Shown: positions 1,886-56,154 of the stretch, in pieces
Layout: each line of letters starts with the position of its first letter
Position numbering within the stretch: position 1 is the stretch's first letter
Source of the DNA: Escherichia coli
GTDB taxonomy: Bacteria > Pseudomonadota > Gammaproteobacteria > Enterobacterales > Enterobacteriaceae
Strand: one strand, 5' to 3'
NCBI RefSeq assembly: GCF_041248615.1
Contig: NZ_CP158426.1
Length of the DNA stretch: 64,000 nucleotides
Notes under the pieces: generated by a model
Database searches by the model: none
What the model was told of the DNA's origin: nothing
What the model saw: only the letters and a program-made list of their open reading frames with translations
Program-made: the position numbers and the translations under genes

Positions 1886-2647
1886 TTACCGCCACATCGC
1901 GTGTTTATCGCGATAGCAATCGACCCACATCGCCGTCGCACCACAAACGGCAACGGGCATGATGAACAGATTAAGCAGCGGGATCATCGTAAACAGGCTG
2001 GTTAAAGCACCAAACTGCATATTGGTGATTTTGCGTGTGCGCAGGGCGGTGCGCATCTCTTTAAACGGCACTTTGTGGTTATCGAAGGGGTAATCGCAAT
2101 ACTGGATGGCTAACATCCAGGCGCTAAACAGGAACCACAGTACCGGCGCGACGGTTTGCCCAATACCAGGGATGAAGTAAAGAATTAGTAATACAATTGC
2201 GCGCGGCAGATACCAGGCAAATTTTTGCCATTCGCGTTTCATGATTCGCGGCACATCTTTCATGATACCGAAAATCCCGGTATCTGGCGGTGTAGCGCCA
2301 GTCAATCGTGCTTCCAGTTGTTCAGCCAATAAACCATTGAACGGAGCGGCAATCCAGTTAGCAATCGTTGAGAAGAAATAGCCAAACACTAACAGCACAG
2401 AGATGACAGCCAGAGGCCACAACAGATAGCTCAGCCATTGTAACCAGTCCGGAACATAACTCATGAGAGTCGGGATCCAGACATCGAGTTGCGTAAAGAG
2501 CCACCAGAATGCGCCCCCCATCAACAAAATATTGACCAGCAGCGGTAAAATAACGAAACGCCGAATCCCAGGTTGCGAGACGAGCTTCCAGCCTTGCGCA
2601 AAATAGTAAAAACCGCTGCGTGGGGCAGATGTGAATGATGAAACCAT
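1886..2647 (-). CDS. cysZ: Sulfate transporter CysZ
   Basis: 253-aa polytopic membrane ORF, recognised as CysZ; conserved position between cysK and zipA. Confidence 0.9.
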
Positions 2648-2876
2648 AATCAGGATGAGCTCCTTTTGACCAATCCCAGGAAAATTCTGCGTATTTTACC
2701 GGGTAATTGCGCAATGGACAGTTAGGATATGTTCGAAAAAACAGCAAAAAGCACGATTTCATCTATCTTTGTGCTGTGAAAGTTAATAGTGCACTTGCAC
2801 TTGAGGTAATCGGCAAATACTCTTAGTGAGTAAATGTTTGCCGTGGTGGCAAGGTGTTAGAACAACAGAGAATATA

Positions 2877-3875
2877 ATGATGCAGGATTTGCGTCTGATA
2901 TTAATCATTGTTGGCGCGATCGCCATAATCGCTTTACTGGTACATGGTTTCTGGACCAGCCGTAAAGAACGATCTTCTATGTTCCGCGATCGGCCATTAA
3001 AACGAATGAAGTCAAAACGTGACGACGATTCTTATGACGAGGATGTCGAAGATGATGAGGGCGTTGGTGAGGTTCGTGTTCACCGCGTGAATCATGCCCC
3101 GGCTAACGCCCAGGAGCATGAGGCTGCTCGTCCGTCGCCGCAACACCAGTACCAACCGCCTTATGCGTCTGCGCAGCCGCGTCAACCGGTCCAGCAGCCG
3201 CCTGAAGCGCAGGTACCGCCGCAACATGCTCCGCGTCCAGCGCAGCCGGTGCAGCAACCCGTGCAGCAGCCTGCCTATCAGCCGCAGCCTGAACAGCCGT
3301 TGCAGCAGCCAGTTTCGCCACAAGTCGCGTCAGCGCCGCAGCCAGTGCATTCAGCACCGCAACCGGCACAACAGGCTTTCCAGCCTGCAGAACCCGTAGC
3401 GGCACCACAGCCTGAGCCTGTAGCGGAACCGGCTCCAGTTATGGATAAACCGAAGCGCAAAGAAGCGGTGATTATCATGAACGTCGCGGCGCATCACGGT
3501 AGCGAGCTAAACGGTGAACTGCTTCTTAACAGCATTCAACAAGCGGGCTTCATTTTTGGCGATATGAATATTTACCATCGTCATCTTAGCCCGGATGGCA
3601 GCGGCCCGGCGTTATTCAGCCTGGCGAATATGGTGAAACCGGGAACCTTTGATCCTGAAATGAAGGATTTCACTACTCCGGGTGTCACTATCTTTATGCA
3701 GGTACCGTCTTACGGTGACGAGCTGCAGAACTTCAAGCTGATGCTGCAATCTGCGCAGCATATTGCCGATGAAGTGGGCGGTGTAGTGCTTGACGATCAG
3801 CGCCGTATGATGACTCCGCAGAAATTGCGCGAGTACCAGGACATCATCCGCGAAGTCAAAGACGCCAACGCCTGA
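2877..3875 (+). CDS. zipA: Cell division protein ZipA
   Basis: Start placed at [21 protein letters not shown] (track ORF starts upstream at GTG 2826); N-terminal TM helix, P/Q-rich linker, C-terminal FtsZ-binding domain. Confidence 0.9.
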
Positions 3876-3904
3876 TACACTTAAGGCAAATTAACTCCTC
3901 TTCG

Positions 3905-3928
3905 AACCCCCGCTTGTCGGGGGTTTTT
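3905..3928 (+). terminator. Intrinsic terminator after zipA
   Basis: cccccg...cggggg stem followed by TTTTT. Confidence 0.55.
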
Positions 3929-3936
3929 AGCATTGA

Positions 3937-5961
<2,025 letters not shown>

Positions 5962-5962
5962 G

Positions 5963-6181
5963 ATGGAAAAAGAGCAGCTGATTGAAATAGCCAATACGAT
6001 AATGCCGTTTGGCAAATACAAAGGGCGTCGCTTAATCGACCTGCCGGAGGAGTATCTTCTGTGGTTTGCCCGCAAAGATGAGTTCCCGGCAGGGAAGCTC
6101 GGTGAGCTAATGCAAATCACGCTGCTGATTAAAACTGAGGGGCTGACGCAACTGGTCCAGCCCCTGAAGCGTCCTCTTTAA
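5963..6181 (+). CDS. ypeB: DUF3820 family small protein
   Basis: 72 codons starting MEKEQLIEIANTIMPFGKYKGRRL, ATG one base after the ligA stop; track ORF 5870-6181 is a 5' over-extension. Confidence 0.8.
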   Translation: MEKEQLIEIANTIMPFGKYKGRRLIDLPEEYLLWFARKDEFPAGKLGELMQITLLIKTEGLTQLVQPLKRPL

Positions 6182-7176
6182 GCTTTATTGGCGCGGCTTT
6201 CCTGCTGCGCCTGTAACTGTTCGGTCTGGTGTTTGTATCGACGCGCCAGCACCGCACAGACCATCAATTGGATCTGATGGAAAATCATCAGAGGCAGCAC
6301 CATCATACCGATCACCGATGTGGGGAAAAGAATGTTTGCCATCGGGATGCCATTTGCCAGACTCTTTTTCGAACCACAAAAGACGATAGTAATTTCATCT
6401 GCCTTATTGAAGCCCAGTCGGCGTGCCATAAAGACGTTAACTACAATCACGATAGCCAGAAGAACGCAGCTGACCACCACGATAAACAGCAATGATCCCC
6501 AGCCAACTTTATGCCAGATACCATTAACGACGGCTTCGCTGAACGCTGTATAAACCACCAACAGAATGGACGTCTGGTCAGTTTTCGCAATCCATTTTTT
6601 ATTGCGCGACACCCAGTCACCAATCCACGGCCGGGAAAGATGCCCCAACACAAACGGCAGCAGCAGTTGCAGCATAATTTTACCGACCTGCTCAAGGCTG
6701 CCTCCCGCACCGTGAACATTCATCACCAGACCAACCAGCAATGGTGAAAGGAAAATCCCCAACAGGCTGGATGCTGACGCAGAACAAACCGCTGCCGCGA
6801 CGTTACCGCCCGCCATTGAAGTAAAGGCGATTGCAGACTGCACGGTAGCGGGGAGAATGCACAAGTAGAGAAAACCGGAGTAGAGCATCGGGTCGACATT
6901 TACCGGTTTCCACCAGGCAAACAGCACGCCCAGAATCGGAAATAGTACAAAGGTGCTGCACATTACCCACAAATGCAGTCGCCAGTGACCACCGCCAGCA
7001 ATAATCGCTTCACGCGACAACTTCGCGCCGTGCATAAAGAACAGCAGGGCAATAGCTGCGGTGGTCAGATTTTCAAAGAAGGGGACGAAATCGCCTCTGG
7101 CCGGAAAGAAAGAGGCCAGCAACACCACCGTGATCAGGGTTAAGGTGAAAGGATCGAGGATACGAAAAAGTTTCAT
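6178..7176 (-). CDS. yfeH: Putative bile acid/sodium symporter family transporter
   Basis: 332-aa polytopic membrane ORF, recognised as YfeH. Confidence 0.85.
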   Translation of the reverse strand: MKLFRILDPFTLTLITVVLLASFFPARGDFVPFFENLTTAAIALLFFMHGAKLSREAIIAGGGHWRLHLWVMCSTFVLFPILGVLFAWWKPVNVDPMLYSGFLYLCILPATVQSAIAFTSMAGGNVAAAVCSASASSLLGIFLSPLLVGLVMNVHGAGGSLEQVGKIMLQLLLPFVLGHLSRPWIGDWVSRNKKWIAKTDQTSILLVVYTAFSEAVVNGIWHKVGWGSLLFIVVVSCVLLAIVIVVNVFMARRLGFNKADEITIVFCGSKKSLANGIPMANILFPTSVIGMMVLPLMIFHQIQLMVCAVLARRYKHQTEQLQAQQESRANKA

Positions 7177-7265
7177 AAAGACTCCAGATGATCGATGGTT
7201 CTATTGTGCTTCTTCCAGTTTGAGAAATAAAATTGATTTATTGCATCCATTCATGAAGAAAACAG

Positions 7266-8192
7266 ATGAATTATTCTTTAAAGCAATTAAAGGTTTTCGT
7301 CACAGTAGCGCAGGAGAAAAGTTTTAGTCGTGCAGGAGAGCGTATCGGCCTGAGTCAGTCGGCAGTAAGTCACAGTGTGAAGGAGCTGGAAAATCATACT
7401 GGTGTTCGCCTGCTGGACAGAACCACGCGTGAAGTGGTGCTTACAGATGCAGGGCAGCAGTTGGCTTTGCGTCTTGAGCGACTGCTGGATGAACTTAACA
7501 GCACGTTGCGCGATACCGGGCGTATGGGGCAACAACTGAGCGGAAAAGTTCGGGTCGCTGCCAGCCAGACCATTTCCGCGCATCTTATTCCGCAATGCAT
7601 TGCTGAAAGTCATCGCCGCTATCCAGATATTCAGTTTGTCCTGCACGATCGTCCGCAGCAGTGGGTGATGGAAAGTATTCGCCAGGGAGATGTCGATTTT
7701 GGCATCGTCATCGATCCAGGCCCAGTGGGCGATCTGCAATGTGAAGCGATTCTTTCCGAGCCTTTCTTCTTGCTTTGCCATCGCGATAGCGCTTTGGCCG
7801 CGGAAGATTATGTACCCTGGCAGGCATTACAGGGAGCGAAATTGGTGTTGCAGGATTACGCGTCAGGCAGCCGACCGCTGATTGACGCAGCGCTGGCGCG
7901 CTATGGTATTCAGGCGAATATTGTGCAGGAGATTGGACATCCGGCGACGCTGTTCCCGATGGTAGCCGCAGGCATCGGCATTAGTATTCTTCCCGCACTG
8001 GCGCTGCCATTGCCTGAAGGTAGCCCACTGGTGGTGAAGCGCATTACGCCGGTGGTGGAACGCCAGTTGATGCTGGTGCGCAGGAAAAACCGTTCACTTT
8101 CCACCGCCGCACAAGCGTTATGGGACGTGGTACGAGACCAGGGCCGTGCTCTAATGGCTGGGCGGGAAGGGGATCCGCTGTATCAGATATAG
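7266..8192 (+). CDS. yfeR: LysR-family transcriptional regulator
   Basis: 308 aa with N-terminal HTH ([38 protein letters not shown]), divergent from yfeH. Confidence 0.85.
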
Positions 8193-8229
8193 AGCTATTC
8201 ATACTGCCGGGAGCCCCGGCAGTAATCAA

Positions 8230-8994
8230 TCAGAAATTAAATTTGATGGAGTAGATTATTGCATCCTGGTAAAAATCTTCGCCCAGTTTGTCATCCGCAT
8301 AACGATACTGAATTCCTGTGGTGATGTGTGAAGTTGCATTCCACCAAAGTGCGACGGCACCGTTCAGACCTTCTTTGCCGCCATTACCTGCCGCGTAGGT
8401 GGCATCACGATCAAACTCGTACTCGTTCCAGTTGGTGAGGGTGAATTTCTCACTGCCCAGCATAAAGCTGTAACCTGCAACCCAACCGGCGACATAACCG
8501 TTATCGCCGGTATAATAGGTTTGGTCTGTATAGCGTTTTGCAAAGAACGGTTTGAACCACCAACCGCTGCCGGTGAAATTGTAGCCGATACCGTACAGGA
8601 ACATATCGTCGTGGAAATTCACGCGATTCGCAGAACCGTAGGTGCCATACGCATGCAAGTAGAAATTAAATCCGGTGTCACCCAGGTAAATACGGTTGGT
8701 ATTTTTAAATGTATAACGCTGCTCGCTACCCGGTTTATCATGACGATCATTATAAAAGTTTTCCCAGTCGAAGAACCCGTACATTTCTCCCCAACTAAAG
8801 TTAGCGCCGCCTTCCAGTTCCAGATATCCAAAATCATCTTTGTGTGATTTGGTCGACGATTTCTCAGTGGTTCTGCTAGTCCAGTCAAGATAATGAATAC
8901 CTATATCAGCAAAACCGCCTTTAAATTCTGCATGGGATACTGCTGGTATCGCCAATACAGAAGAGAGTGTCAGAGTAAAAAGATGTTTTTTCAT
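8230..8994 (-). CDS. yfeN: Tsx-like outer membrane protein
   Basis: 254 aa, signal peptide MKKHLFTLTLSSVLAIPAVSHA, aromatic-rich beta-barrel-like sequence ending in F. Confidence 0.8.
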   Translation of the reverse strand: MKKHLFTLTLSSVLAIPAVSHAEFKGGFADIGIHYLDWTSRTTEKSSTKSHKDDFGYLELEGGANFSWGEMYGFFDWENFYNDRHDKPGSEQRYTFKNTNRIYLGDTGFNFYLHAYGTYGSANRVNFHDDMFLYGIGYNFTGSGWWFKPFFAKRYTDQTYYTGDNGYVAGWVAGYSFMLGSEKFTLTNWNEYEFDRDATYAAGNGGKEGLNGAVALWWNATSHITTGIQYRYADDKLGEDFYQDAIIYSIKFNF

Positions 8995-9242
8995 AGCATA
9001 ATTCCCTATGCCGATCGTTATTAGTTGATTGCTTAATAAAAAGGTTGATTAAAAGCGGCATATTGTTAATGCAAGGGAAAGGAGAGTACCAATACAGTTT
9101 TTTCAGCCTATTAATAGTGAAAAAATATAAATATATCGATATCGAATAACTATCGGATACATGAAAAAAGTGTATTGGTATGAGGTAGGGCAATCTCGTT
9201 ATAAAAAGGCGTTAGATTCCACCCTACAAAAAAAGGATATAT

Positions 9243-10076
9243 ATGTCTCAGGCTCAGTTTTCTCATAACCCACTGTATTGCGTAGATATTATCAAGACTT
9301 ATAAACCTGATTTCACGCCACGAGTGGCCTTTATTTTAGGTTCCGGGCTGGGCGCGCTGGCCGATCAGATTGAGAACGCGGTCGCAATTTCCTACGAAAA
9401 GCTGCCTGGGTTCCCGGTAAGTACCGTACATGGCCATGCGGGTGAGCTGGTGCTGGGTTATCTCCAGGGGGTGCCAGTGGTGTGCATGAAAGGTCGCGGA
9501 CATTTCTACGAAGGTCGTGGGATGACCATCATGACGGATGCAATCCGTACCTTTAAGTTGCTGGGCTGCGAGTTGCTGTTCAGCACCAATGCGGCTGGCT
9601 CACTGCGTCCTGAAGTGGGGGCCGGCAGTCTGGTCGCATTGAAAGATCACATCAACACCATGCCGGGAACGCCGATGGTGGGTCTTAATGATGAACGTTT
9701 TGGTGAGCGCTTCTTCTCGCTGGCGAATGCCTACGATGCGGAATACCGCGCACTGTTACAAAAAGTGGCGAAAGAAGAGGGGTTCCCTCTGACGGAGGGC
9801 GTGTTCGTCTCGTATCCGGGTCCGAATTTCGAGACTGCGGCGGAAATTCGCATGATGCAAATTATTGGTGGGGATGTTGTTGGTATGTCTGTGGTGCCTG
9901 AGGTTATTTCTGCTCGCCATTGCGAACTTAAAGTCGTTGCGGTCTCTGCGATTACCAACATGGCGGAAGGTCTGAGTGACGTGAAGCTTTCTCATGCCCA
10001 AACGCTGGCAGCAGCGGAGCTCTCAAAGCAAAACTTTATTAATCTTATTTGCGGCTTTCTGCGCAAAATTGCCTGA
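9243..10076 (+). CDS. xapA: Xanthosine phosphorylase (purine nucleoside phosphorylase II)
   Basis: 277-aa ORF, PNP family, recognised as XapA. Confidence 0.9.
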   Translation: MSQAQFSHNPLYCVDIIKTYKPDFTPRVAFILGSGLGALADQIENAVAISYEKLPGFPVSTVHGHAGELVLGYLQGVPVVCMKGRGHFYEGRGMTIMTDAIRTFKLLGCELLFSTNAAGSLRPEVGAGSLVALKDHINTMPGTPMVGLNDERFGERFFSLANAYDAEYRALLQKVAKEEGFPLTEGVFVSYPGPNFETAAEIRMMQIIGGDVVGMSVVPEVISARHCELKVVAVSAITNMAEGLSDVKLSHAQTLAAAELSKQNFINLICGFLRKIA

Positions 10077-10136
10077 GTAAAACAACAATAAACGGCCTCA
10101 CTGAGTGAGGCCATATGATGCGACAAGGAAACGATT

Positions 10137-11393
10137 ATGAGCATCGCTTTGCGCTTAAAGGTAATGTCCTTTTTGCAATATTTTATCTGGGGGAGCTGGC
10201 TGGTTACCCTCGGTTCTTACATGATTAATACCCTTCATTTCACCGGCGCTAATGTTGGCATGGTTTACAGTTCCAAAGGGATCGCCGCGATTATTATGCC
10301 TGGTATAATGGGGATCATCGCAGACAAATGGCTGCGTGCAGAACGTGCATACATGCTGTGTCACCTGGTGTGTGCAGGCGTACTTTTTTATGCGGCATCC
10401 GTAACTGATCCGGATATGATGTTTTGGGTGATGTTAGTCAATGCGATGGCGTTTATGCCGACTATTGCGTTATCGAACAGCGTCTCTTATTCCTGTCTTG
10501 CCCAGGCAGGGCTTGACTCGGTGACCGCTTTCCCGCCCATTCGCGTTTTTGGTACGGTGGGGTTCATTGTCGCCATGTGGGCAGTAAGCCTGCTGCATCT
10601 GGAATTGAGTAGTCTGCAGCTGTATATCGCGTCCGGTGCGTCATTGCTGCTGTCGGCTTATGCGCTGACTTTGCCGAAGATTCCGGTTGCGGAGAAAAAA
10701 GCGACTACATCGCTTGCCAGCAAGCTGGGTCTGGATGCCTTCGTGCTGTTTAAAAATCCACGCATGGCTATCTTTTTCCTCTTCGCCATGATGCTGGGCG
10801 CGGTGCTGCAAATTACCAACGTTTTTGGCAACCCGTTCCTGCATGATTTCGCCCGTAATCCTGAGTTTGCTGATAGCTTCGTGGTGAAATACCCGTCCAT
10901 TTTACTGTCAGTTTCACAGATGGCTGAAGTCGGTTTCATTCTGACGATACCGTTCTTTTTGAAGCGTTTCGGTATTAAAACCGTCATGCTGATGAGTATG
11001 GTGGCGTGGACGCTGCGCTTTGGCTTCTTCGCCTATGGCGATCCGTCAACAACCGGATTTATTTTGCTGCTGCTGTCGATGATTGTTTATGGCTGTGCAT
11101 TCGATTTCTTCAATATTTCTGGTTCGGTATTTGTCGAACAGGAAGTTGATTCCAGCATTCGTGCCAGCGCGCAGGGCCTTTTTATGACGATGGTAAATGG
11201 CGTCGGCGCATGGGTTGGCTCGATTCTGAGCGGTATGGCAGTGGATTACTTCTCGGTGGATGGCGTAAAAGATTGGCATACCATTTGGCTGATGTTTGCA
11301 GGGTATGCTCTTTTCCTCGCAGTGATATTTTTCTTTGGGTTTAAATATAACCATGACCCTGAAAAGATAACGCATCGTTCAGTTACACATTAA
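10137..11393 (+). CDS. xapB: Xanthosine permease (MFS nucleoside:H+ symporter)
   Basis: 418-aa 12-TM ORF, recognised as XapB. Confidence 0.9.
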   Translation: MSIALRLKVMSFLQYFIWGSWLVTLGSYMINTLHFTGANVGMVYSSKGIAAIIMPGIMGIIADKWLRAERAYMLCHLVCAGVLFYAASVTDPDMMFWVMLVNAMAFMPTIALSNSVSYSCLAQAGLDSVTAFPPIRVFGTVGFIVAMWAVSLLHLELSSLQLYIASGASLLLSAYALTLPKIPVAEKKATTSLASKLGLDAFVLFKNPRMAIFFLFAMMLGAVLQITNVFGNPFLHDFARNPEFADSFVVKYPSILLSVSQMAEVGFILTIPFFLKRFGIKTVMLMSMVAWTLRFGFFAYGDPSTTGFILLLLSMIVYGCAFDFFNISGSVFVEQEVDSSIRASAQGLFMTMVNGVGAWVGSILSGMAVDYFSVDGVKDWHTIWLMFAGYALFLAVIFFFGFKYNHDPEKITHRSVTH

Positions 11394-50292: not shown

Positions 50293-50511
50293 TTAGATGA
50301 TAAATGACAGCAGGAATGTGCCCGCCAGAGCGACGACTGAAGCGATAAATGTCGCGGTCGTATAGTATTTAAATGTTTCATTGAGCGTAGCGTCGCAATA
50401 TTGCTTCACCAGCCAGAAAAGCGAGTCCGTAACGATCGTGCAGCCAATCGCACCTGAACCGATAGCAATCGCAATAATTTCCGGGCTGATGTCGGGATAC
50501 AGCGGCAGCAC
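50293..50511 (-). pseudogene. dsdX: dsdX 3' remnant (last ~70 codons of the D-serine permease gene)
   Basis: Frame ...[71 protein letters not shown] is a GntP-family C-terminus; the upstream frame hits a stop within 15 nt, so the 5' ~85% of the gene is absent. Confidence 0.8.
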
Positions 50512-50753
50512 AATGATCCATATTTATATTTTCTTCTCCAGATTGGCGATGCCAGTTGGCATGTTTTACCTACTTGCCTACATGGTTACTCGTTGGCGAG
50601 AACAGAGGCGGAATTGGGTACAATTGTCCGGGAATTATTGTTATTTTTTATTGTATTGCCGTGTCGGGTGATAGGGCGTCGAGAATATCGTTGGATCTCG
50701 CCAGTGACGTCTGTTTCTGCTACAGTGCCCGTTTTACGGCAAACGGCTTGGGT

Positions 50754-51749
50754 ATGGCTTCATTAAAGGATGTCGCACGCCTGGCGGGAGTGTCGATGAT
50801 GACAGTCTCCCGGGTGATGCATAATGCAGAATCTGTGCGTCCTGCAACGCGTGATCGCGTATTGCAGGCAATCCAGACCCTGAATTATGTTCCTGATCTT
50901 TCCGCCCGTAAGATGCGCGCTCAAGGACGTAAGCCGTCGACTCTCGCCGTGCTGGCGCAGGACACGGCCACCACTCCTTTCTCTGTTGATATTCTGCTTG
51001 CCATTGAGCAAACCGCCAGCGAGTTCGGCTGGAATAGTTTTTTAATCAATATTTTTTCTGAAGATGACGCTGCCCGCGCGGCACGTCAGCTGCTTGCCCA
51101 CCGTCCGGATGGCATTATCTATACAACAATGGGGCTGCGACATATCACGCTGCCTGAGTCTCTGTATGGTGAAAATATTGTATTGGCGAACTGTGTGGCG
51201 GATGACCCAGCGTTACCCAGTTATATCCCTGATGATTACACTGCACAATATGAATCAACACAGCATTTGCTCGCGGCGGGCTATCGTCAACCGTTATGCT
51301 TCTGGCTACCGGAAAGTGCGTTGGCAACAGGGTATCGTCGGCAGGGATTTGAGCAGGCCTGGCGTGATGCTGGACGAGATCTGGCTGAGGTGAAACAATT
51401 TCACATGGCAACAGGTGATGATCACTACACCGATCTCGCAAGTTTACTCAATGACCACTTCAAATCTGGCAAACCAGATTTTGATGTTCTGATATGTGGT
51501 AACGATCGCGCAGCCTTTGTCGCTTATCAGGTTCTCCTGGCGAAGGGGGTACGTATCCCGCAGGATGTCGCCGTAATGGGCTTTGATAATCTGGTTGGCG
51601 TCGGGCATCTGTTTTTACCGCCGCTGACCACAATTCAGCTTCCACATGACATTATCGGGCGGGAAGCTGCATTGCATATTATTGAAGGTCGTGAAGGGGG
51701 AAGAGTGACGCGGATCCCTTGCCCGCTGTTGATCCGTTGTTCCACCTGA
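50754..51749 (+). CDS. cscR: Sucrose operon repressor (LacI family)
   Basis: 331 aa from MASLKDVARLAGVSMMTVSRVMHN (LacI-type HTH); track start 50556 is a TTG over-extension. Confidence 0.9.
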   Translation: MASLKDVARLAGVSMMTVSRVMHNAESVRPATRDRVLQAIQTLNYVPDLSARKMRAQGRKPSTLAVLAQDTATTPFSVDILLAIEQTASEFGWNSFLINIFSEDDAARAARQLLAHRPDGIIYTTMGLRHITLPESLYGENIVLANCVADDPALPSYIPDDYTAQYESTQHLLAAGYRQPLCFWLPESALATGYRRQGFEQAWRDAGRDLAEVKQFHMATGDDHYTDLASLLNDHFKSGKPDFDVLICGNDRAAFVAYQVLLAKGVRIPQDVAVMGFDNLVGVGHLFLPPLTTIQLPHDIIGREAALHIIEGREGGRVTRIPCPLLIRCST

Positions 51750-51756
51750 TATTATG

Positions 51757-53190
51757 TTAACCCAGTTGCCAGAGTGCTCCATGTTGCAGCACAGCCACTC
51801 CGTGGGAGGCATAGAGCGACAGTTCCCGTTCTTCTGGCTGCGGATATATTCGGCTACTCATCACCGCCTCCCCGTCGTTAATAAATACTTCCACGGATGA
51901 TGTATCGATAAATATCCTTAGGGCGAGCATGTCACCCTGCGGGAGGGGAATACTACGGTAGCCATCTAAATTCTCGTGTGGGTAATACCGCCACAAAACA
52001 AGTCGCTCAGATTGGTTATCAATATACAGCCGCATTCCAGTGCCGAGCTGTAATCCGTAATGTTCGGCATCACTGTTCTTCAGCGCCCACTGCAACTGAA
52101 TCTCAACTGCTTGCGCGTTTTCCTGCAAAACATATTTATTGCTGATTGTGCGGGGAGAGATAGATTGATGCTGCTGGCGTAACGACTCAGCTTCGTGTAC
52201 CGGGCGTTGTAGAAGTTTGCCATTGCTCTCTGATAGCTCGCGCGCCAGCGTCATGCAGCCTGCCCAGCCTTCACGTTTTGAGGGCATTGGCGATTCCCAC
52301 ATATCCATCCAGCCGATAACAATACGCCGACCATCCTTCGCTAAAAAGCTTTGTGGTGCATAAAAGTCATGCCCGTTATCAAGTTCAGTAAAATACCCGG
52401 ATTGTGCAAAAAGTCGTCCTGGCGACCACATTCCGGGTATTACGCCACTTTGAAAGCGATTTCGGTAACTGTATCCCTCGGCATTCATTCCCTGCGGGGA
52501 AAACATCAGATAATGCTGATCGCCAAGGCTGAAAAAGTCCGGACATTCCCACATATAGCTTTCACCCGCATCAGCGTGGGCCAGTACGCGATCGAAGGTC
52601 CATTCACGCAATGAACTGCCGCGATAAAGCAAGATCTGCCCCGTGTTGCCTGGATCTTTCGCCCCGACAACCATCCACCATGTGTCGGCTTCACGCCACA
52701 CTTTAGGATCGCGGAAGTGCATGATGCCTTCTGGTGGAGTGAGGATCACGCCCTGTTTCTCGAAATGAATACCATCCCGACTGGTAGCCAGACATTGTAC
52801 TTCGCGAATTGCATCGTCATTACCAGCACCATCGAGCCAGACGTGTCCGGTGTAGATAAGTGAGAGGACACCATTGTCATCGACAGCACTACCTGAAAAA
52901 CACCCGTCTTTGTCATTCTCGTCTCCTGGCGCTAGCGCAATAGGCTCATGCTGCCAGTGGATCATATCGTCGCTGGTGGCATGTCCCCAGTGCATTGGCC
53001 CCCAGTGTTCGCTCATCGGGTGATGTTGATAAAACGCGTGATAACGATCGTTAAACCAGATCAGGCCGTTTGGATCGTTCATCCACCCGGCAGGAGGCGC
53101 GAGGTGAAAATGGGGATAGAAAGTGTTACCTCGGCGCTCGTGAAGTTTTGCTAGTGCGTTTTGCGCCGCATGTAATCGAGATTGCGTCAT
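51757..53190 (-). CDS. cscA: Sucrose-6-phosphate hydrolase / invertase (GH32)
   Basis: 477 aa from MTQSRLHAAQNALAKL; GH32 motifs WMNDPNG and RDP. Confidence 0.9.
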   Translation of the reverse strand: MTQSRLHAAQNALAKLHERRGNTFYPHFHLAPPAGWMNDPNGLIWFNDRYHAFYQHHPMSEHWGPMHWGHATSDDMIHWQHEPIALAPGDENDKDGCFSGSAVDDNGVLSLIYTGHVWLDGAGNDDAIREVQCLATSRDGIHFEKQGVILTPPEGIMHFRDPKVWREADTWWMVVGAKDPGNTGQILLYRGSSLREWTFDRVLAHADAGESYMWECPDFFSLGDQHYLMFSPQGMNAEGYSYRNRFQSGVIPGMWSPGRLFAQSGYFTELDNGHDFYAPQSFLAKDGRRIVIGWMDMWESPMPSKREGWAGCMTLARELSESNGKLLQRPVHEAESLRQQHQSISPRTISNKYVLQENAQAVEIQLQWALKNSDAEHYGLQLGTGMRLYIDNQSERLVLWRYYPHENLDGYRSIPLPQGDMLALRIFIDTSSVEVFINDGEAVMSSRIYPQPEERELSLYASHGVAVLQHGALWQLG

Positions 53191-53405
53191 TTTTATCATC
53201 CTGGTTAAGCAAATTTGGTGAATTGTTAACGTTAACTTTTATAAAAATAAAGTCCCTTACTTTCATAAATGCGATGAATATCACAAATGTTAACGTTAAC
53301 TATGACGTTTTGTGATCGAATATGCATGTTTTAGTAAATCCATGACGATTTTGCGAAAAAGAGGTTTATCACTATGCGTAAGTCAGATGAATTTAAGGGA
53401 AAAAA

Positions 53406-54329
53406 ATGTCAGCCAAAGTATGGGTTTTAGGGGATGCGGTCGTAGATCTCTTGCCAGAATCAGACGGGCGGCTACTGCCTTGTCCTGGCGGCGCGCCAGC
53501 TAACGTTGCGGTGGGAATCGCCAGATTAGGCGGAACAAGTGGGTTTATAGGTCGGGTCGGTGATGATCCTTTTGGTGCGTTAATGCAAAGAACGCTGCTA
53601 ACTGAGGGTGTCGATATCACGTTTCTGAAGCAAGATGAATGGCACCGGACATCCACGGTGCTTGTCGATCTGAACGATCAAGGAGAACGTTCATTTACGT
53701 TTATGGTCCGCCCCAGTGCCGATCTTTTTTTAGAGACGACAGACTTGCCCCGCTGGCGACATGGCGAATGGTTACATCTCTGTTCAATTGCGTTGTCTGC
53801 CGAGCCTTCGCGTACCAGCGCATTTACTGCGATGACGGCGATCCGGCATGCCGGAGGTTTTGTCAGCTTCGATCCCAATATTCGTGAAGATCTATGGCAA
53901 GACGAGCATTTGCTCCGCTTGTGTTTGCGGCAGGCGCTACAACTGGCGGATGTCGTCAAGCTCTCGGAAGAAGAATGGCGACTTATCAGTGGAAAAACAC
54001 AGAACGATCGGGATATATGCGCCCTGGCAAAAGAGTATGAGATCGCCATGCTGTTGGTGACTAAAGGTGCAGAAGGGGTGGTGGTCTGTTATCGAGGACA
54101 AGTTCACCATTTTGCTGGAATGTCTGTGAATTGTGTCGATAGCACTGGGGCGGGAGATGCGTTCGTTGCCGGGTTACTCACAGGTCTGTCCTCTACGGGA
54201 TTATCTACAGATGAGAGAGAAATGCGACGAATTATCGATCTCGCTCAACGTTGCGGAGCGCTTGCAGTAACAGCGAAAGGGGCAATGACAGCGCTGCCAT
54301 GTCGACAAGAACTGGAAGGTGAGAAGTAA
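53406..54329 (+). CDS. cscK: Fructokinase (pfkB/ribokinase family)
   Basis: 307 aa, MSAKVWVLGDAVVDLL...GAGDAF motifs. Confidence 0.9.
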   Translation: MSAKVWVLGDAVVDLLPESDGRLLPCPGGAPANVAVGIARLGGTSGFIGRVGDDPFGALMQRTLLTEGVDITFLKQDEWHRTSTVLVDLNDQGERSFTFMVRPSADLFLETTDLPRWRHGEWLHLCSIALSAEPSRTSAFTAMTAIRHAGGFVSFDPNIREDLWQDEHLLRLCLRQALQLADVVKLSEEEWRLISGKTQNDRDICALAKEYEIAMLLVTKGAEGVVVCYRGQVHHFAGMSVNCVDSTGAGDAFVAGLLTGLSSTGLSTDEREMRRIIDLAQRCGALAVTAKGAMTALPCRQELEGEK

Positions 54330-54390
54330 ACGGCGAGGCCGCTCTTATCTCTAAATAGGACATGAATTTTTTAACGACAGGCAGGTAATT

Positions 54391-55638
54391 ATGGCACTGA
54401 ATATTCCATTCAGAAATGCGTACTATCGTTTTGCATCCAGTTACTCATTTCTCTTTTTTATTTCCTGGTCGCTGTGGTGGTCGTTATACGCTATTTGGCT
54501 GAAAGGACATCTAGGATTAACAGGGACGGAATTAGGTACACTTTATTCGGTCAACCAGTTTACCAGCATTCTATTTATGATGTTCTACGGCATCGTTCAG
54601 GATAAACTCGGTCTGAAGAAACCGCTCATCTGGTGTATGAGTTTCATTCTGGTCTTGACCGGACCGTTTATGATTTACGTTTATGAACCGTTACTGCAAA
54701 GCAATTTTTCTGTAGGTCTAATTCTGGGGGCGCTCTTTTTTGGCCTGGGGTATCTGGCGGGATGCGGTTTGCTTGACAGCTTCACCGAAAAAATGGCGCG
54801 AAATTTTCATTTCGAATATGGAACAGCGCGCGCCTGGGGATCTTTTGGCTATGCTATTGGCGCGTTCTTTGCCGGTATATTTTTTAGTATCAGTCCCCAT
54901 ATCAACTTCTGGTTGGTCTCGCTATTTGGCGCTGTATTTATGATGATCAACATGCGTTTTAAAGATAAGGATCACCAGTGCATAGCGGCGGATGCGGGAG
55001 GGGTAAAAAAAGAGGATTTTATCGCAGTTTTCAAGGATCGAAACTTCTGGGTTTTCGTCATATTTATTGTGGGGACGTGGTCTTTCTATAACATTTTTGA
55101 TCAACAACTCTTTCCTGTCTTTTATGCAGGTTTATTCGAATCACACGATGTAGGAACGCGCCTGTATGGTTATCTCAACTCATTCCAGGTGGTACTCGAA
55201 GCGCTGTGCATGGCGATTATTCCTTTCTTTGTGAATCGGGTAGGGCCAAAAAATGCATTACTTATCGGTGTTGTGATTATGGCGTTGCGTATCCTTTCTT
55301 GCGCGCTGTTCGTTAACCCCTGGATTATTTCATTAGTGAAGCTGTTACATGCCATTGAGGTTCCACTTTGTGTCATATCCGTCTTCAAATACAGCGTGGC
55401 AAACTTTGATAAGCGCCTGTCGTCGACGATCTTTCTGATTGGTTTTCAAATTGCCAGTTCGCTTGGGATTGTGCTGCTTTCAACGCCGACTGGGATACTC
55501 TTTGACCACGCAGGCTACCAGACAGTTTTCTTCGCAATTTCGGGTATTGTCTGCCTGATGTTGCTATTTGGCATTTTCTTCCTGAGTAAAAAACGCGAGC
55601 AAATAGTTATGGAAACGCCTGTACCTTCAGCAATATAG
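54391..55638 (+). CDS. cscB: Sucrose:H+ symporter (MFS oligosaccharide:H+ symporter family)
   Basis: 415-aa 12-TM MFS protein, LacY-like. Confidence 0.9.
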   Translation: MALNIPFRNAYYRFASSYSFLFFISWSLWWSLYAIWLKGHLGLTGTELGTLYSVNQFTSILFMMFYGIVQDKLGLKKPLIWCMSFILVLTGPFMIYVYEPLLQSNFSVGLILGALFFGLGYLAGCGLLDSFTEKMARNFHFEYGTARAWGSFGYAIGAFFAGIFFSISPHINFWLVSLFGAVFMMINMRFKDKDHQCIAADAGGVKKEDFIAVFKDRNFWVFVIFIVGTWSFYNIFDQQLFPVFYAGLFESHDVGTRLYGYLNSFQVVLEALCMAIIPFFVNRVGPKNALLIGVVIMALRILSCALFVNPWIISLVKLLHAIEVPLCVISVFKYSVANFDKRLSSTIFLIGFQIASSLGIVLLSTPTGILFDHAGYQTVFFAISGIVCLMLLFGIFFLSKKREQIVMETPVPSAI

Positions 55639-56079
55639 ACGTAAACTTTTTCCGGTTGTTGTCGATATCTCCATATCCCTCAACCGGAAAATAATAATAC
55701 AAAAATGCTTAGCCCAACTAATAATCACCTAATCCAAACGCCTCATTCATGTTCTGGTACAGTCGCTCAAATGTACTCCGGATACGCGGTTCGCTGATTT
55801 CCAGGACATTGTCGTCATTCAGCGACCTGTCCCGAGTATCACGGGCCTGCGAATTCATCAAGGAATGCATTGCAGAGTGAAGTATCGAGTCACGCCATAT
55901 TTCGCTATCAGGATTCTGTATGATGGTTACATCGCCCAGCCCAGGGCTGTTTAGTCATCAGCGCTTTCTGACAGTGCTGAGATTTCAACCTGTTGCAGTA
56001 AAAATGAGTAGATATAGGGCAAGTGTGCTGCCAAACCCATCTTTTACGGGGTGAAGGTAGATTTGGTTTGAAGGGTATC

Positions 56080-56154
56080 TGGTGTCCCCTGCAGGAATCG
56101 AACCTGCAATTAGCCCTTAGGAGGGGCTCGTTATATCCATTTAACTAAGAGGAC
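56080..56154 (-). tRNA. argW: tRNA-Arg (anticodon CCU)
   Basis: Reverse complement reads GTCCTCTTAGTTAAATGGATATAACGAGCCCCTCCTAAGGGCTAATTGCAGGTTCGATTCCTGCAGGGGACACCA. Confidence 0.9.

What the first reader, a model, noticed from the sequence alone, without database searches (positions are those of the whole stretch)
55639..56079. 440-bp island/tRNA junction with a decayed open frame on the minus strand
Between the cscB terminator-like hairpin (tttccggttg...caaccggaaa, about 55648-55690) and the 3' end of argW there is sequence with no full-length gene. The minus strand carries an open frame of about 75 codons ending ...SEPRIRSTFERLYQNMNEAFGLGDY that is preceded by an in-frame stop; its only in-frame ATG gives about 50 codons. 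Its position is where an island integrase or a former neighbouring gene would have been, so it is likely a gene remnant marking the island boundary. I could not identify it.
Basis: seen in the sequence. Interest (0 to 1): 0.35.

Follow-up and report, generated by a model that had tools for sequence, protein, structure and literature searches.

The report
Dead island-gene fragment beside argW
The 440 bp between the sucrose permease gene cscB and the tRNA gene argW holds a decayed, non-functional fragment of two genes (DUF957 and DUF4942) that normally end a "CP4-type" genomic island; it is an ordinary relic, already labelled in public E. coli annotations.

Summary
cscB ends at 55638. An 11-bp inverted repeat lies at 55648-55658 / 55681-55691. 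argW (tRNA-Arg CCU) lies at 56080-56154 on the minus strand. A 78-codon open minus-strand frame (55718-55951) contains a 50-codon ATG ORF (55718-55870).

The frame is a pseudogene fragment, not an integrase. It matches Pfam DUF4942 (E 8e-6; 3.6e-9 when reconstructed). At DNA level it is 69-78% identical, in three collinear blocks, to the DUF957-DUF4942 gene pair that ends CP4/P4-type islands: DUF957 codons 35-45, then DUF4942 codons 38-66 and 85-151. It has two internal deletions, frameshifts and stops, and lacks the last 130 codons.

It evolves neutrally: pN/pS is 0.57 against 0.08 for cscB, its divergence is close to cscB dS, and several alleles carry extra stops. It occurs in 2624 of 5426 complete E. 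coli genomes, almost always fused to cscB, and always lies outside attR when a prophage or island occupies argW.

The 5-kb csc module in Citrobacter lacks it. It is therefore most likely the last piece of an old argW island that was cut down by deletion and by the replacement that brought in csc. It is ordinary and already annotated by PGAP, so interest is low.

The parts
54391..55638 (+). cscB (sucrose permease), an intact gene; its stop codon is the left edge of the finding
   Evidence: 415-aa ORF. Annotated as MFS or sucrose transporter in RefSeq genomes. pN/pS 0.08 among 7 alleles.
55648..55691 (.). 11-bp inverted repeat with a 22-nt spacer, just after cscB. It belongs to the csc module and is not a canonical terminator.
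   Evidence: Sequence read. Fold -17.3 kcal/mol, z -4.4. No T-tract, and not called by the terminator scan. Conserved in Citrobacter amalonaticus-group csc loci and in divergent Escherichia.
55706..55716 (.). Right end of the 5-kb csc module, i.e. the junction with the island relic
   Evidence: Homology to Citrobacter csc loci (80-83% identity) spans window 50713-55706. ETEC strain L7_E1373 shares sequence up to 55715 and then carries ISEc46. tblastn homology to DUF4942 starts at 55727.
55718..55870 (-). 50-codon ATG ORF, annotated by PGAP as 'DUF4942 domain-containing protein' (WP_001316510.1); a pseudogene fragment
   Evidence: Pfam PF13708, E 8e-6, profile positions 18-62 of 190. In-frame stops occur in other alleles.
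55727..55954 (-). Main DUF4942 fragment, corresponding to codons 76/85-151 of a 281-codon gene. DNA block C is 55735-55926. It lies in the 78-codon open frame 55718-55951.
   Evidence: tblastn 51% identity over 76 aa, E 4e-20. blastn 74-78% over about 192 nt against L004/L005 DUF4942.
55926..56013 (-). DUF4942 fragment for codons 38-66, in a different frame, with two in-frame stops. It is separated from the main fragment by a deletion of about 54 bp.
   Evidence: tblastn second HSP. blastn 67-73% over 44-88 nt, collinear with the other blocks.
56011..56043 (-). Fragment of DUF957 (codons 35-45), the gene immediately upstream of DUF4942 in CP4-type islands. It is joined to DUF4942 codon 38 by a deletion of about 258 bp.
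   Evidence: blastn 76% over 33 nt (E 0.004). In the divergent Escherichia allele L008 it is 87.5% over 32 nt (E 1e-6), with the 9/9 peptide match DSAALLPCI.
56044..56079 (.). 36 nt between the relic and the tRNA end; origin not assigned
   Evidence: No significant similarity to the K-12 attR-dsdC spacer or to DUF957 codons 20-36.
56080..56154 (-). argW, tRNA-Arg(CCU). Its 3' end (56080-56094, TGGTGTCCCCTGCAG) is the att core used by argW-integrating elements.
   Evidence: ARAGORN. Rfam tRNA 63.4 bits. K-12 homology ends exactly at 56080, and the 15-bp core equals K-12 pawZ/attR. The same core flanks a prophage or island in L006, L008 and L018.

Best explanation
The region is a non-functional relic of the last two genes, DUF957 and DUF4942, of a CP4/P4-type genomic island that once sat in the argW attachment site.

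Such islands place their integrase next to the tRNA. A conserved module (DUF932, antirestriction, RadC, DUF987, YeeU, CbtA, DUF5983, DUF957, DUF4942) sits at the far end, on the same strand as the tRNA. The relic has exactly that strand and gene order.

**Shown**
- Only about 0.36 kb survives: DUF957 codons 35-45, then DUF4942 codons 38-66 and 85-151.
- It has two internal deletions, frameshifts and stops.
- It has no DUF4942 3' half and no attR.
- It drifts neutrally.
- It is fixed in the csc-type haplotype of the argW-dsdA interval, about 48% of complete E. coli genomes.
- It stays on the chromosomal side of attR whenever a new prophage or island occupies argW.

**Inferred**
1. An ancestor carried such an island between argW and dsdC.
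2. A roughly 5.2-kb foreign piece (a decayed permease-gene end plus cscR, cscA, cscK, cscB and the hairpin) replaced everything from DUF4942 codon 151, through the island end and dsdC, into dsdX.
3. A deletion removed the rest of the island from the argW 3' end up to DUF957. This may have occurred at a core-like CTGCAGGACA inside DUF957.

The order of steps 2 and 3 is unknown. The fragment does nothing today.
For: **Identity of the fragment**
- Pfam DUF4942, E 8e-6 for the 50-aa ORF and 3.6e-9 (37 bits, profile positions 5-62) for the reconstructed frame.
- PGAP labels the ORF 'DUF4942 domain-containing protein'.
- tblastn against a 281-aa island DUF4942 gives 51% identity, E 4e-20.
- Three collinear DNA blocks cover DUF957 codons 35-45 and DUF4942 codons 38-66 and 85-149 at 69-78% identity.

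**Synteny of the module**
- DUF957 followed by DUF4942 ends the conserved module in an EDL933 island, a Klebsiella oxytoca record and a K. pneumoniae plasmid.
- In the Shigella SRL island, which excludes orf1 as the integrase, DUF957 and DUF4942 are orf55 and orf56 of 59 (PMC6980539).

**Architecture at argW itself**
- Strain NCCP 13963 has argW, an integrase on the same strand, about 55 kb of cargo, then DUF987 and a YeeU pseudogene on the same strand, then a 19-bp attR, then this relic, then cscB.

**Pseudogene status**
- pN/pS is 0.57 for the relic against 0.08 for cscB.
- Relic divergence is 0.039-0.118, similar to cscB dS of 0.03-0.18.
- Alleles L018, L021 and L022 carry extra in-frame stops.
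- 75-78% DNA identity but only 51% protein identity is the signature of decay.
- No promoter-like site and no RNA family other than the tRNA.

**Not part of the csc module**
- Citrobacter csc loci match window 50713-55706 only, and are followed there by a chemoreceptor gene.

**Fixed flank of the attachment site**
- The relic is contiguous with cscB in 2614 genomes and present in 2624 of 5426.
- It lies outside attR in a P22-like prophage record (L006), in L008 and in L018.

**Age**
- A 90%-diverged Escherichia lineage (L008) carries the same relic with three further deletions.
Against: - No intact parent gene closer than about 78% DNA identity was found. This holds for 5426 E. coli genomes, for 5.8 billion proteins and for 100,044 species representatives. 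The source island is therefore not identified.
- No old attR and no integrase remain in the window.
- The relic starts only 36 nt from the tRNA end. That needs a deletion ending almost exactly at argW. The pseudo-core explanation for this is not statistically supported, because the intervening 41-44 nt are not significantly like DUF957.
- Two known CP4-type islands (EDL933 at serW; K-12 CP4-6 at thrW, from my own knowledge) have the module next to the tRNA and reading towards it. Geometry alone is therefore not decisive.
- The left csc flank carries donor-context sequence, so a donor origin for the right flank cannot be fully excluded.
Confidence: 0.8

Rival explanations
1. The relic arrived with the csc genes as donor-side flank. 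On this view csc sat next to a CP4-type module in the donor molecule, and the whole piece (relic, csc and left flank) was inserted downstream of argW in one event.
For: - The relic and cscB are almost never separated: 2614 contiguous out of 2624-2650 genomes.
- All alleles share the same ...GLGDY* end at the csc junction.
- The left flank of the insert (50511-50712) does carry decayed donor-context sequence.
Against: - The only non-Escherichia loci with an E. coli-type csc module (Citrobacter amalonaticus group) have a chemoreceptor gene, not DUF4942, after the hairpin.
- The relic abuts the argW att core, where CP4-type islands demonstrably integrate in this orientation.
- Tight linkage is expected anyway for sequences less than 100 bp apart.
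Confidence: 0.15
2. The 50-78-codon frame encodes a functional small DUF4942-domain protein that has been retained by selection, as its RefSeq CDS annotation implies.
For: - PGAP calls a CDS here in many genomes.
- The C-terminal 19 residues are nearly invariant among seven alleles, and pooled pN/pS is 0.57, below 1.
Against: - It covers only profile positions 5-62 of the 190 in the domain.
- Start codons and lengths vary: 44, 50, 60, 73 and 79 aa.
- In-frame stops occur in the AR_0014, O111 and NCCP 13963 alleles, and large deletions in L008.
- Many genomes have no CDS called here.
- Overall divergence is about equal to cscB dS.
- No promoter-like site.
- The pN/pS value rests on few, non-independent substitutions.
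Confidence: 0.03
3. It is the remnant of an integrase gene, or of a former core chromosomal neighbour of argW.
For: - Integrases do sit at this position and on this strand in other strains: intS in K-12, an intS N-terminal fragment in ETEC L7_E1373, and an integrase in NCCP 13963.
Against: - The only family hit is DUF4942 (plus DUF957 at DNA level), with no integrase domain.
- There is no similarity to the K-12 sequence beyond the tRNA end.
Confidence: 0.01

Closest known systems
DUF4942 (Pfam PF13708) genes at the distal end of CP4/P4-type tRNA-associated islands, e.g. L0010 of the LEE island and orf56 of the Shigella SRL island
   Same: - Sequence homology at protein and DNA level.
- Preceded by DUF957, as in those islands.
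- Same strand as the tRNA gene.
- Lies next to a tRNA attachment site.
   Different: - Only codons 38-66 and 85-151 of 281 survive, with frameshifts and stops.
- About 75% DNA identity to the nearest intact E. coli copies.
- No island body, integrase or attR remains.
The argW-dsdCXA variable region, or csc substitution haplotype, of E. coli (Jahreis 2002 and Moritz & Welch 2006, as cited in PMC11251922, PMC4366372 and PMC3032704)
   Same: - Same locus: cscRAKB replaces dsdC and most of dsdX next to argW, at a known recombination and integration hotspot.
   Different: - The papers I could read do not describe the fragment between cscB and argW.
- This work assigns it to an older island and shows that the csc module proper ends at about 55706-55715.
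K-12 pawZ and the CPS-53 attR (a scar of an element at argW)
   Same: - Also a leftover of element integration at argW.
- Uses the same 15-bp core.
   Different: - pawZ is the duplicated tRNA end of a resident prophage.
- This relic is decayed coding sequence of a vanished island and has no core repeat on its far side.

Membership tests
Pfam DUF4942 (PF13708) | Significant profile match above the gathering score | tested here: met
   26.1 bits against a cutoff of 25, E 8e-6 for the 50-aa ORF. 37 bits, E 3.6e-9 for the reconstructed frame.
Pfam DUF4942 (PF13708) | Complete domain (190 profile positions) in an intact reading frame of about 280 codons | tested here: not met
   Only profile positions 5-62 are matched. 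Codons 1-37, 67-84 and 152-281 are missing, and stops and frameshifts are present.
CP4/P4-type tRNA-associated genomic island (distal conserved module) | DUF957 immediately upstream of DUF4942 on the same strand | tested here: met
   Block A (DUF957 codons 35-45) is followed by blocks B and C (DUF4942), collinear on the minus strand. Reference synteny.
CP4/P4-type tRNA-associated genomic island (distal conserved module) | Adjacent to a tRNA attachment site, module on the same strand as the tRNA | tested here: met
   The relic lies 36 nt from the argW 3' end, and both are on the minus strand. The living argW island in NCCP 13963 has the same orientation.
CP4/P4-type tRNA-associated genomic island (distal conserved module) | Tyrosine integrase next to the tRNA, and a direct repeat of the tRNA 3' end (attR) at the far end | tested here: not met
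   No integrase ORF lies between cscB and argW. There is no second copy of the 15- or 25-nt argW end in the 64-kb window, allowing up to 2-3 mismatches. What remains is a relic, not an island.
Tyrosine integrase remnant | Similarity to Phage_integrase or Arm-binding domains, or to intS | tested here: not met
   No such Pfam hit. No similarity to K-12 intS DNA.
Intrinsic (Rho-independent) terminator, for the hairpin at 55648-55691 | G+C-rich stem with a short loop, followed by a T-tract | tested here: not met
   A stable 11-bp stem exists. However, the loop is 22 nt, the stem is followed by A-rich sequence on both strands, and the scan did not call it.

The most novel reading that the evidence does not exclude
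The two decayed fragments that bracket the csc genes may record how E. coli acquired sucrose utilisation. They are a yjfF-like permease end at 50511-50712 and this DUF957/DUF4942 relic at 55716-56043.

On this reading, a single illegitimate replacement put about 5.2 kb from a Citrobacter-like yjfF-csc-fbp locus into an ancestor that carried a CP4-type island at argW. That event removed the island end, dsdC and most of dsdX. The rest of the island was later lost by recombination between the argW att core and a conserved core-like CTGCAGGACA inside DUF957. Such a built-in secondary site would let these islands be trimmed precisely from argW.
Probability: 0.25. Interest if true: 0.3.

Novelty: already known. 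Interest (0 to 1): 0.1.

Why it matters
It matters little on its own. It is a dead fragment in one of the best-known variable regions of the E. coli chromosome, and RefSeq already labels it with the right family.

- **Annotation.** The 44-79-aa 'DUF4942 domain-containing protein' or 'hypothetical protein' CDSs called here in thousands of genomes should be pseudogene features.
- **History of the locus.** The relic shows that the csc module proper ends about 70-80 bp after cscB. It also shows that the csc haplotype was built on the remains of an older argW island. Together with the Citrobacter comparison, this constrains how and from where csc was acquired.
- **Practical use.** The relic is a convenient neutral marker that always lies outside attR of argW-integrated prophages and islands.

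Tried and rejected
**Direct repeat of the argW 3' end.** I searched the 64-kb window with 25 nt (up to 3 mismatches) and 15 nt (up to 2 mismatches). Only argW itself matched.

**Similarity to K-12 beyond argW.** There is none; homology stops at 56080. I then tested whether the 36 nt next to argW match the 95-bp attR-dsdC spacer of K-12, after noticing a shared TTTATCCCT. The score is at chance level, reached by 14-93% of shuffles depending on the allele.

**Search for an intact parent gene.**
- The word-indexed search of 5.8 billion proteins returned only same-locus fragments.
- The exhaustive HMMER search gave a best full-length hit of 53% identity.
- The peptide-pattern scan of 100,044 species genomes found nothing.
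- Distant blastn of 5426 E. coli genomes showed a gap between at least 90% (orthologous relics) and at most 80% (paralogous intact genes), with a single record in between.

**Family searches that gave nothing.**
- Pfam DUF957 on the short translated peptides: no hit, as they are too short. The DUF957 assignment rests on DNA blastn and the 9/9 peptide in L008.
- NCBIfam and PDB sequence searches with the fragment or with a full-length DUF4942: no hits. DUF4942 remains of unknown function.

**Missing DUF4942 3' half.** I tested whether it lies on the other side of csc, at 50511-50712. It does not. That stretch instead resembles the end of a Citrobacter yjfF-like permease gene.

**Is the relic part of the NCCP 13963 island?** Rejected. 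A 19-bp attR separates them. The island's YeeU and DUF987 are 90% identical to canonical copies, whereas the relic is 75-78% identical.

**Pseudo-att site in DUF957.** The core-like 10-mer and the spacing fit, but the intervening sequence similarity is not significant. I keep this only as speculation.

**Paper not held.** Moritz & Welch 2006 (PMC1698345) could not be read.

Full report
**1. What is in the sequence**

- cscB is an intact 415-codon ORF ending at 55638.
- Ten bases later comes an 11-bp inverted repeat with a 22-nt spacer: TTTTCCGGTTG at 55648-55658 and CAACCGGAAAA at 55681-55691. It folds well as RNA (-17.3 kcal/mol, z = -4.4).
- The repeat is flanked 5' by T and 3' by A on both strands, so no T-tract follows it. 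The terminator scan did not call it.
- argW, tRNA-Arg(CCU), is at 56080-56154 on the minus strand.
- Between them, the minus strand has a 78-codon open frame (55718-55951) preceded by two stops. Its only ATG gives 50 codons, at 55718-55870.

**2. Identity of the frame**

- The 50-aa ORF matches Pfam DUF4942 (PF13708): E 8e-6, 26.1 bits against a cutoff of 25, profile positions 18-62 of 190.
- RefSeq genomes identical to the window annotate it as 'DUF4942 domain-containing protein' WP_001316510.1.
- tblastn searches of plasmid and phage records found full-length DUF4942 genes of about 281 codons at about 50% protein identity. These sit at the end of a conserved island module: DUF932, antirestriction, RadC, DUF987, YeeU, CbtA, DUF5983, DUF957, DUF4942.
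- In the Shigella SRL island the same order is orf52-orf56 of 59 ORFs, with the integrase as orf1 (PMC6980539).

Aligning one such gene (L004:6776-7618) to the window gave two matches:

| DUF4942 residues | Window coordinates | Result |
|---|---|---|
| 76-151 | 55727-55954 | 51% identity, E 4e-20 |
| 38-70 | 55915-56013 | other frame, interrupted by two stops |

At DNA level there are three collinear blocks:

| Window coordinates | Corresponds to | Identity |
|---|---|---|
| 56011-56043 | DUF957 codons 35-45 | 76% (87.5% in allele L008) |
| 55926-56013 | DUF4942 codons 38-66 | 67-73% |
| 55735-55926 | DUF4942 codons 85-149 | 74-78% |

In the divergent allele L008, the DUF957 block translates to DSAALLPCI, a 9/9 match to DUF957.

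The relic therefore carries several lesions:
- a deletion of about 258 bp that fuses DUF957 to DUF4942;
- a deletion of about 54 bp inside DUF4942;
- frameshifts and stops;
- no codons 152-281.

The 36 nt next to argW (56044-56079) could not be assigned.

**3. It is dead**

I aligned seven E. coli alleles and compared substitution patterns.

| Measure | cscB | Relic frame |
|---|---|---|
| pN/pS | 0.08 | 0.57 |
| Divergence | dS 0.03-0.18 | total 0.04-0.12 |

- The relic's total divergence is of the same order as cscB synonymous divergence.
- Three alleles (NCCP 13963, AR_0014, O111) carry additional in-frame stops.
- Called ORF lengths vary from 44 to 79 aa among genomes, and many genomes have no call at all.
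- About 75% DNA identity with only 51% protein identity to intact relatives is itself a signature of unconstrained decay.
- There is no promoter-like site and no Rfam family other than the tRNA.

**4. Where it belongs**

*Against K-12.* Homology to K-12 stops exactly at the argW 3' end, position 56080. In K-12 the CPS-53 prophage follows argW. Its attR (pawZ, the same 15-bp core) lies 95 bp from dsdC, with no relic.

*Distribution.*
- The relic is present in 2624 of 5426 complete E. coli genomes.
- It is contiguous with cscB in 2614 of them.

*Not part of the csc module.*
- Two Citrobacter amalonaticus-group genomes carry csc at 80-83% identity over window 50713-55706 only.
- There the module is followed by a chemoreceptor gene and fbp, and preceded by yjfF-like ABC permeases.
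- One ETEC strain shares sequence up to 55715, then has ISEc46 and an intS N-terminal fragment instead of the relic.

*Always outside attR.* When an element occupies argW, the relic lies on the chromosomal side of attR. This holds for:
- a P22-like prophage record (L006);
- a prophage in a 90%-diverged Escherichia (L008), whose relic has three extra deletions;
- a roughly 55-kb island in strain NCCP 13963.

The NCCP 13963 island shows the expected architecture at this very site. argW is followed by an integrase on the same strand, then cargo, then DUF987 and a YeeU pseudogene on the same strand, then a 19-bp attR. This is the strand and end at which the relic's genes would sit in an older island.

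**5. Most likely history (inferred)**

1. An ancestor had a CP4-type island at argW, upstream of dsdC.
2. A foreign piece of about 5.2 kb replaced the stretch from DUF4942 codon 151 through the island end and dsdC into dsdX.
   - Only the last 218 bp of dsdX remain, and K-12 homology resumes at 50510.
   - The left 200 bp of the piece (50511-50712) weakly resembles the 3' end of the Citrobacter yjfF-like gene, at 66% identity in two collinear blocks.
3. The island body was deleted from the tRNA end to DUF957.

A conserved CTGCAGGACA in DUF957 (codons 17-20) resembles the att core CTGCAGGGGACA. It lies 50 nt before the DSAALLPCI codons, compared with 41-44 nt in the relic. This suggests recombination at a pseudo-core. 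However, the intervening bases are not significantly similar, so this step is speculative.

The main rival is that the relic came in with csc from the donor. I cannot exclude it, but the Citrobacter context and the demonstrated use of argW by CP4-type islands make it less likely.

**6. Comparison with what is known, and novelty**

- The csc/dsd substitution next to argW is a textbook recombination hotspot (PMC11251922, PMC4366372, PMC3032704).
- DUF4942 is an uncharacterised family, with no NCBIfam or PDB relatives by sequence.
- The fragment is already labelled with the correct family by PGAP.
- No intact parent closer than about 78% DNA identity was found anywhere.

It is an ordinary pseudogene relic, so interest is low.

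Noticed in passing
window 55648-55691: The inverted repeat after cscB is conserved in Citrobacter amalonaticus-group csc loci and in divergent Escherichia. There it sits directly before the start codon of the next gene. It lacks a T-tract on either strand, so it is not a canonical terminator. Its role (RNA stabiliser, protein site or atypical terminator) is unknown.
   Followed up: partly
window 50511-50712: The 200 bp between the truncated dsdX (K-12 homology ends at 50510) and the csc module match neither K-12 nor DUF4942. They do show two collinear matches of about 66% identity to the 3' end of the yjfF-like ABC permease gene that precedes csc in Citrobacter. This looks like a decayed piece of donor context, and it hints at the direction of csc transfer.
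   Followed up: partly
L009 and L013 (Citrobacter amalonaticus-group genomes), about 2320-7319: An E. coli-type cscRAKB module (80-83% DNA identity, CscB 90-92%) lies between yjfF-like permease genes and a chemoreceptor gene plus fbp. This is a different chromosomal site, with no tRNA and no island genes. It is too diverged to be a recent export from E. coli.
   Followed up: partly
L002 (ETEC L7_E1373) 8078-10284, equivalent to window 55716-56079: In this strain the relic is absent. ISEc46 (an IS200/IS605-family element with tnpA and tnpB) starts exactly after window position 55715, followed by an N-terminal intS fragment and argW. The IS end coincides with the csc/relic junction, which I did not explain.
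   Followed up: partly
L023 34616 to L019 40196 (E. coli NCCP 13963, record 3439616-3495210): A composite island of about 55 kb occupies argW. It carries an integrase, fecIRABCDE, a decarboxylase/antiporter set, a Qat anti-phage system, a nucleotide-binding/SLATT gene pair, gentisate-pathway genes and many IS copies. It ends with DUF987 and a YeeU pseudogene, then 135 nt and a 19-bp attR, with no toxin gene after YeeU.
   Followed up: partly
L006 (GenBank ON470594, 'Escherichia phage vB_EcoP-683R2, complete genome'); also ON470589, ON470608, ON470622: These phage records contain host DNA beyond attR: the relic plus cscB, cscK, cscA and cscR. They are prophage excerpts whose boundaries overshoot, so csc genes appear as phage genes in phage databases.
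   Followed up: partly
L020 (O157:H7 SS52) about 1942-2724; L022 (O111:H-) 2211-3380: In O157:H7 the relic is followed by a core copy lacking one C (TGGTGTCCCTGCAGG) and a 'recombinase family protein' rather than argW, so another element occupies the site. In O111 a tyrosine integrase lies on the 5' side of argW, where yfdC is expected.
   Followed up: no
L004 6542, L005 6542, L016 4516 (DUF957 codons 17-20): All three DUF957 genes examined contain CTGCAGGACA, which resembles the argW att core CTGCAGGGGACA. Its distance to the DSAALLPCI codons (50 nt) is close to the distance from the argW end to that motif in the relic (41-44 nt).
   Followed up: partly
L004 7618-7855 (EDL933 island next to serW): Here the intact DUF4942 gene ends 150 bp from the 3' end of a complete tRNA-Ser gene and reads towards it. 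This is the opposite geometry to the argW island of NCCP 13963, so CP4-type modules occur in both arrangements relative to tRNA genes.
   Followed up: no
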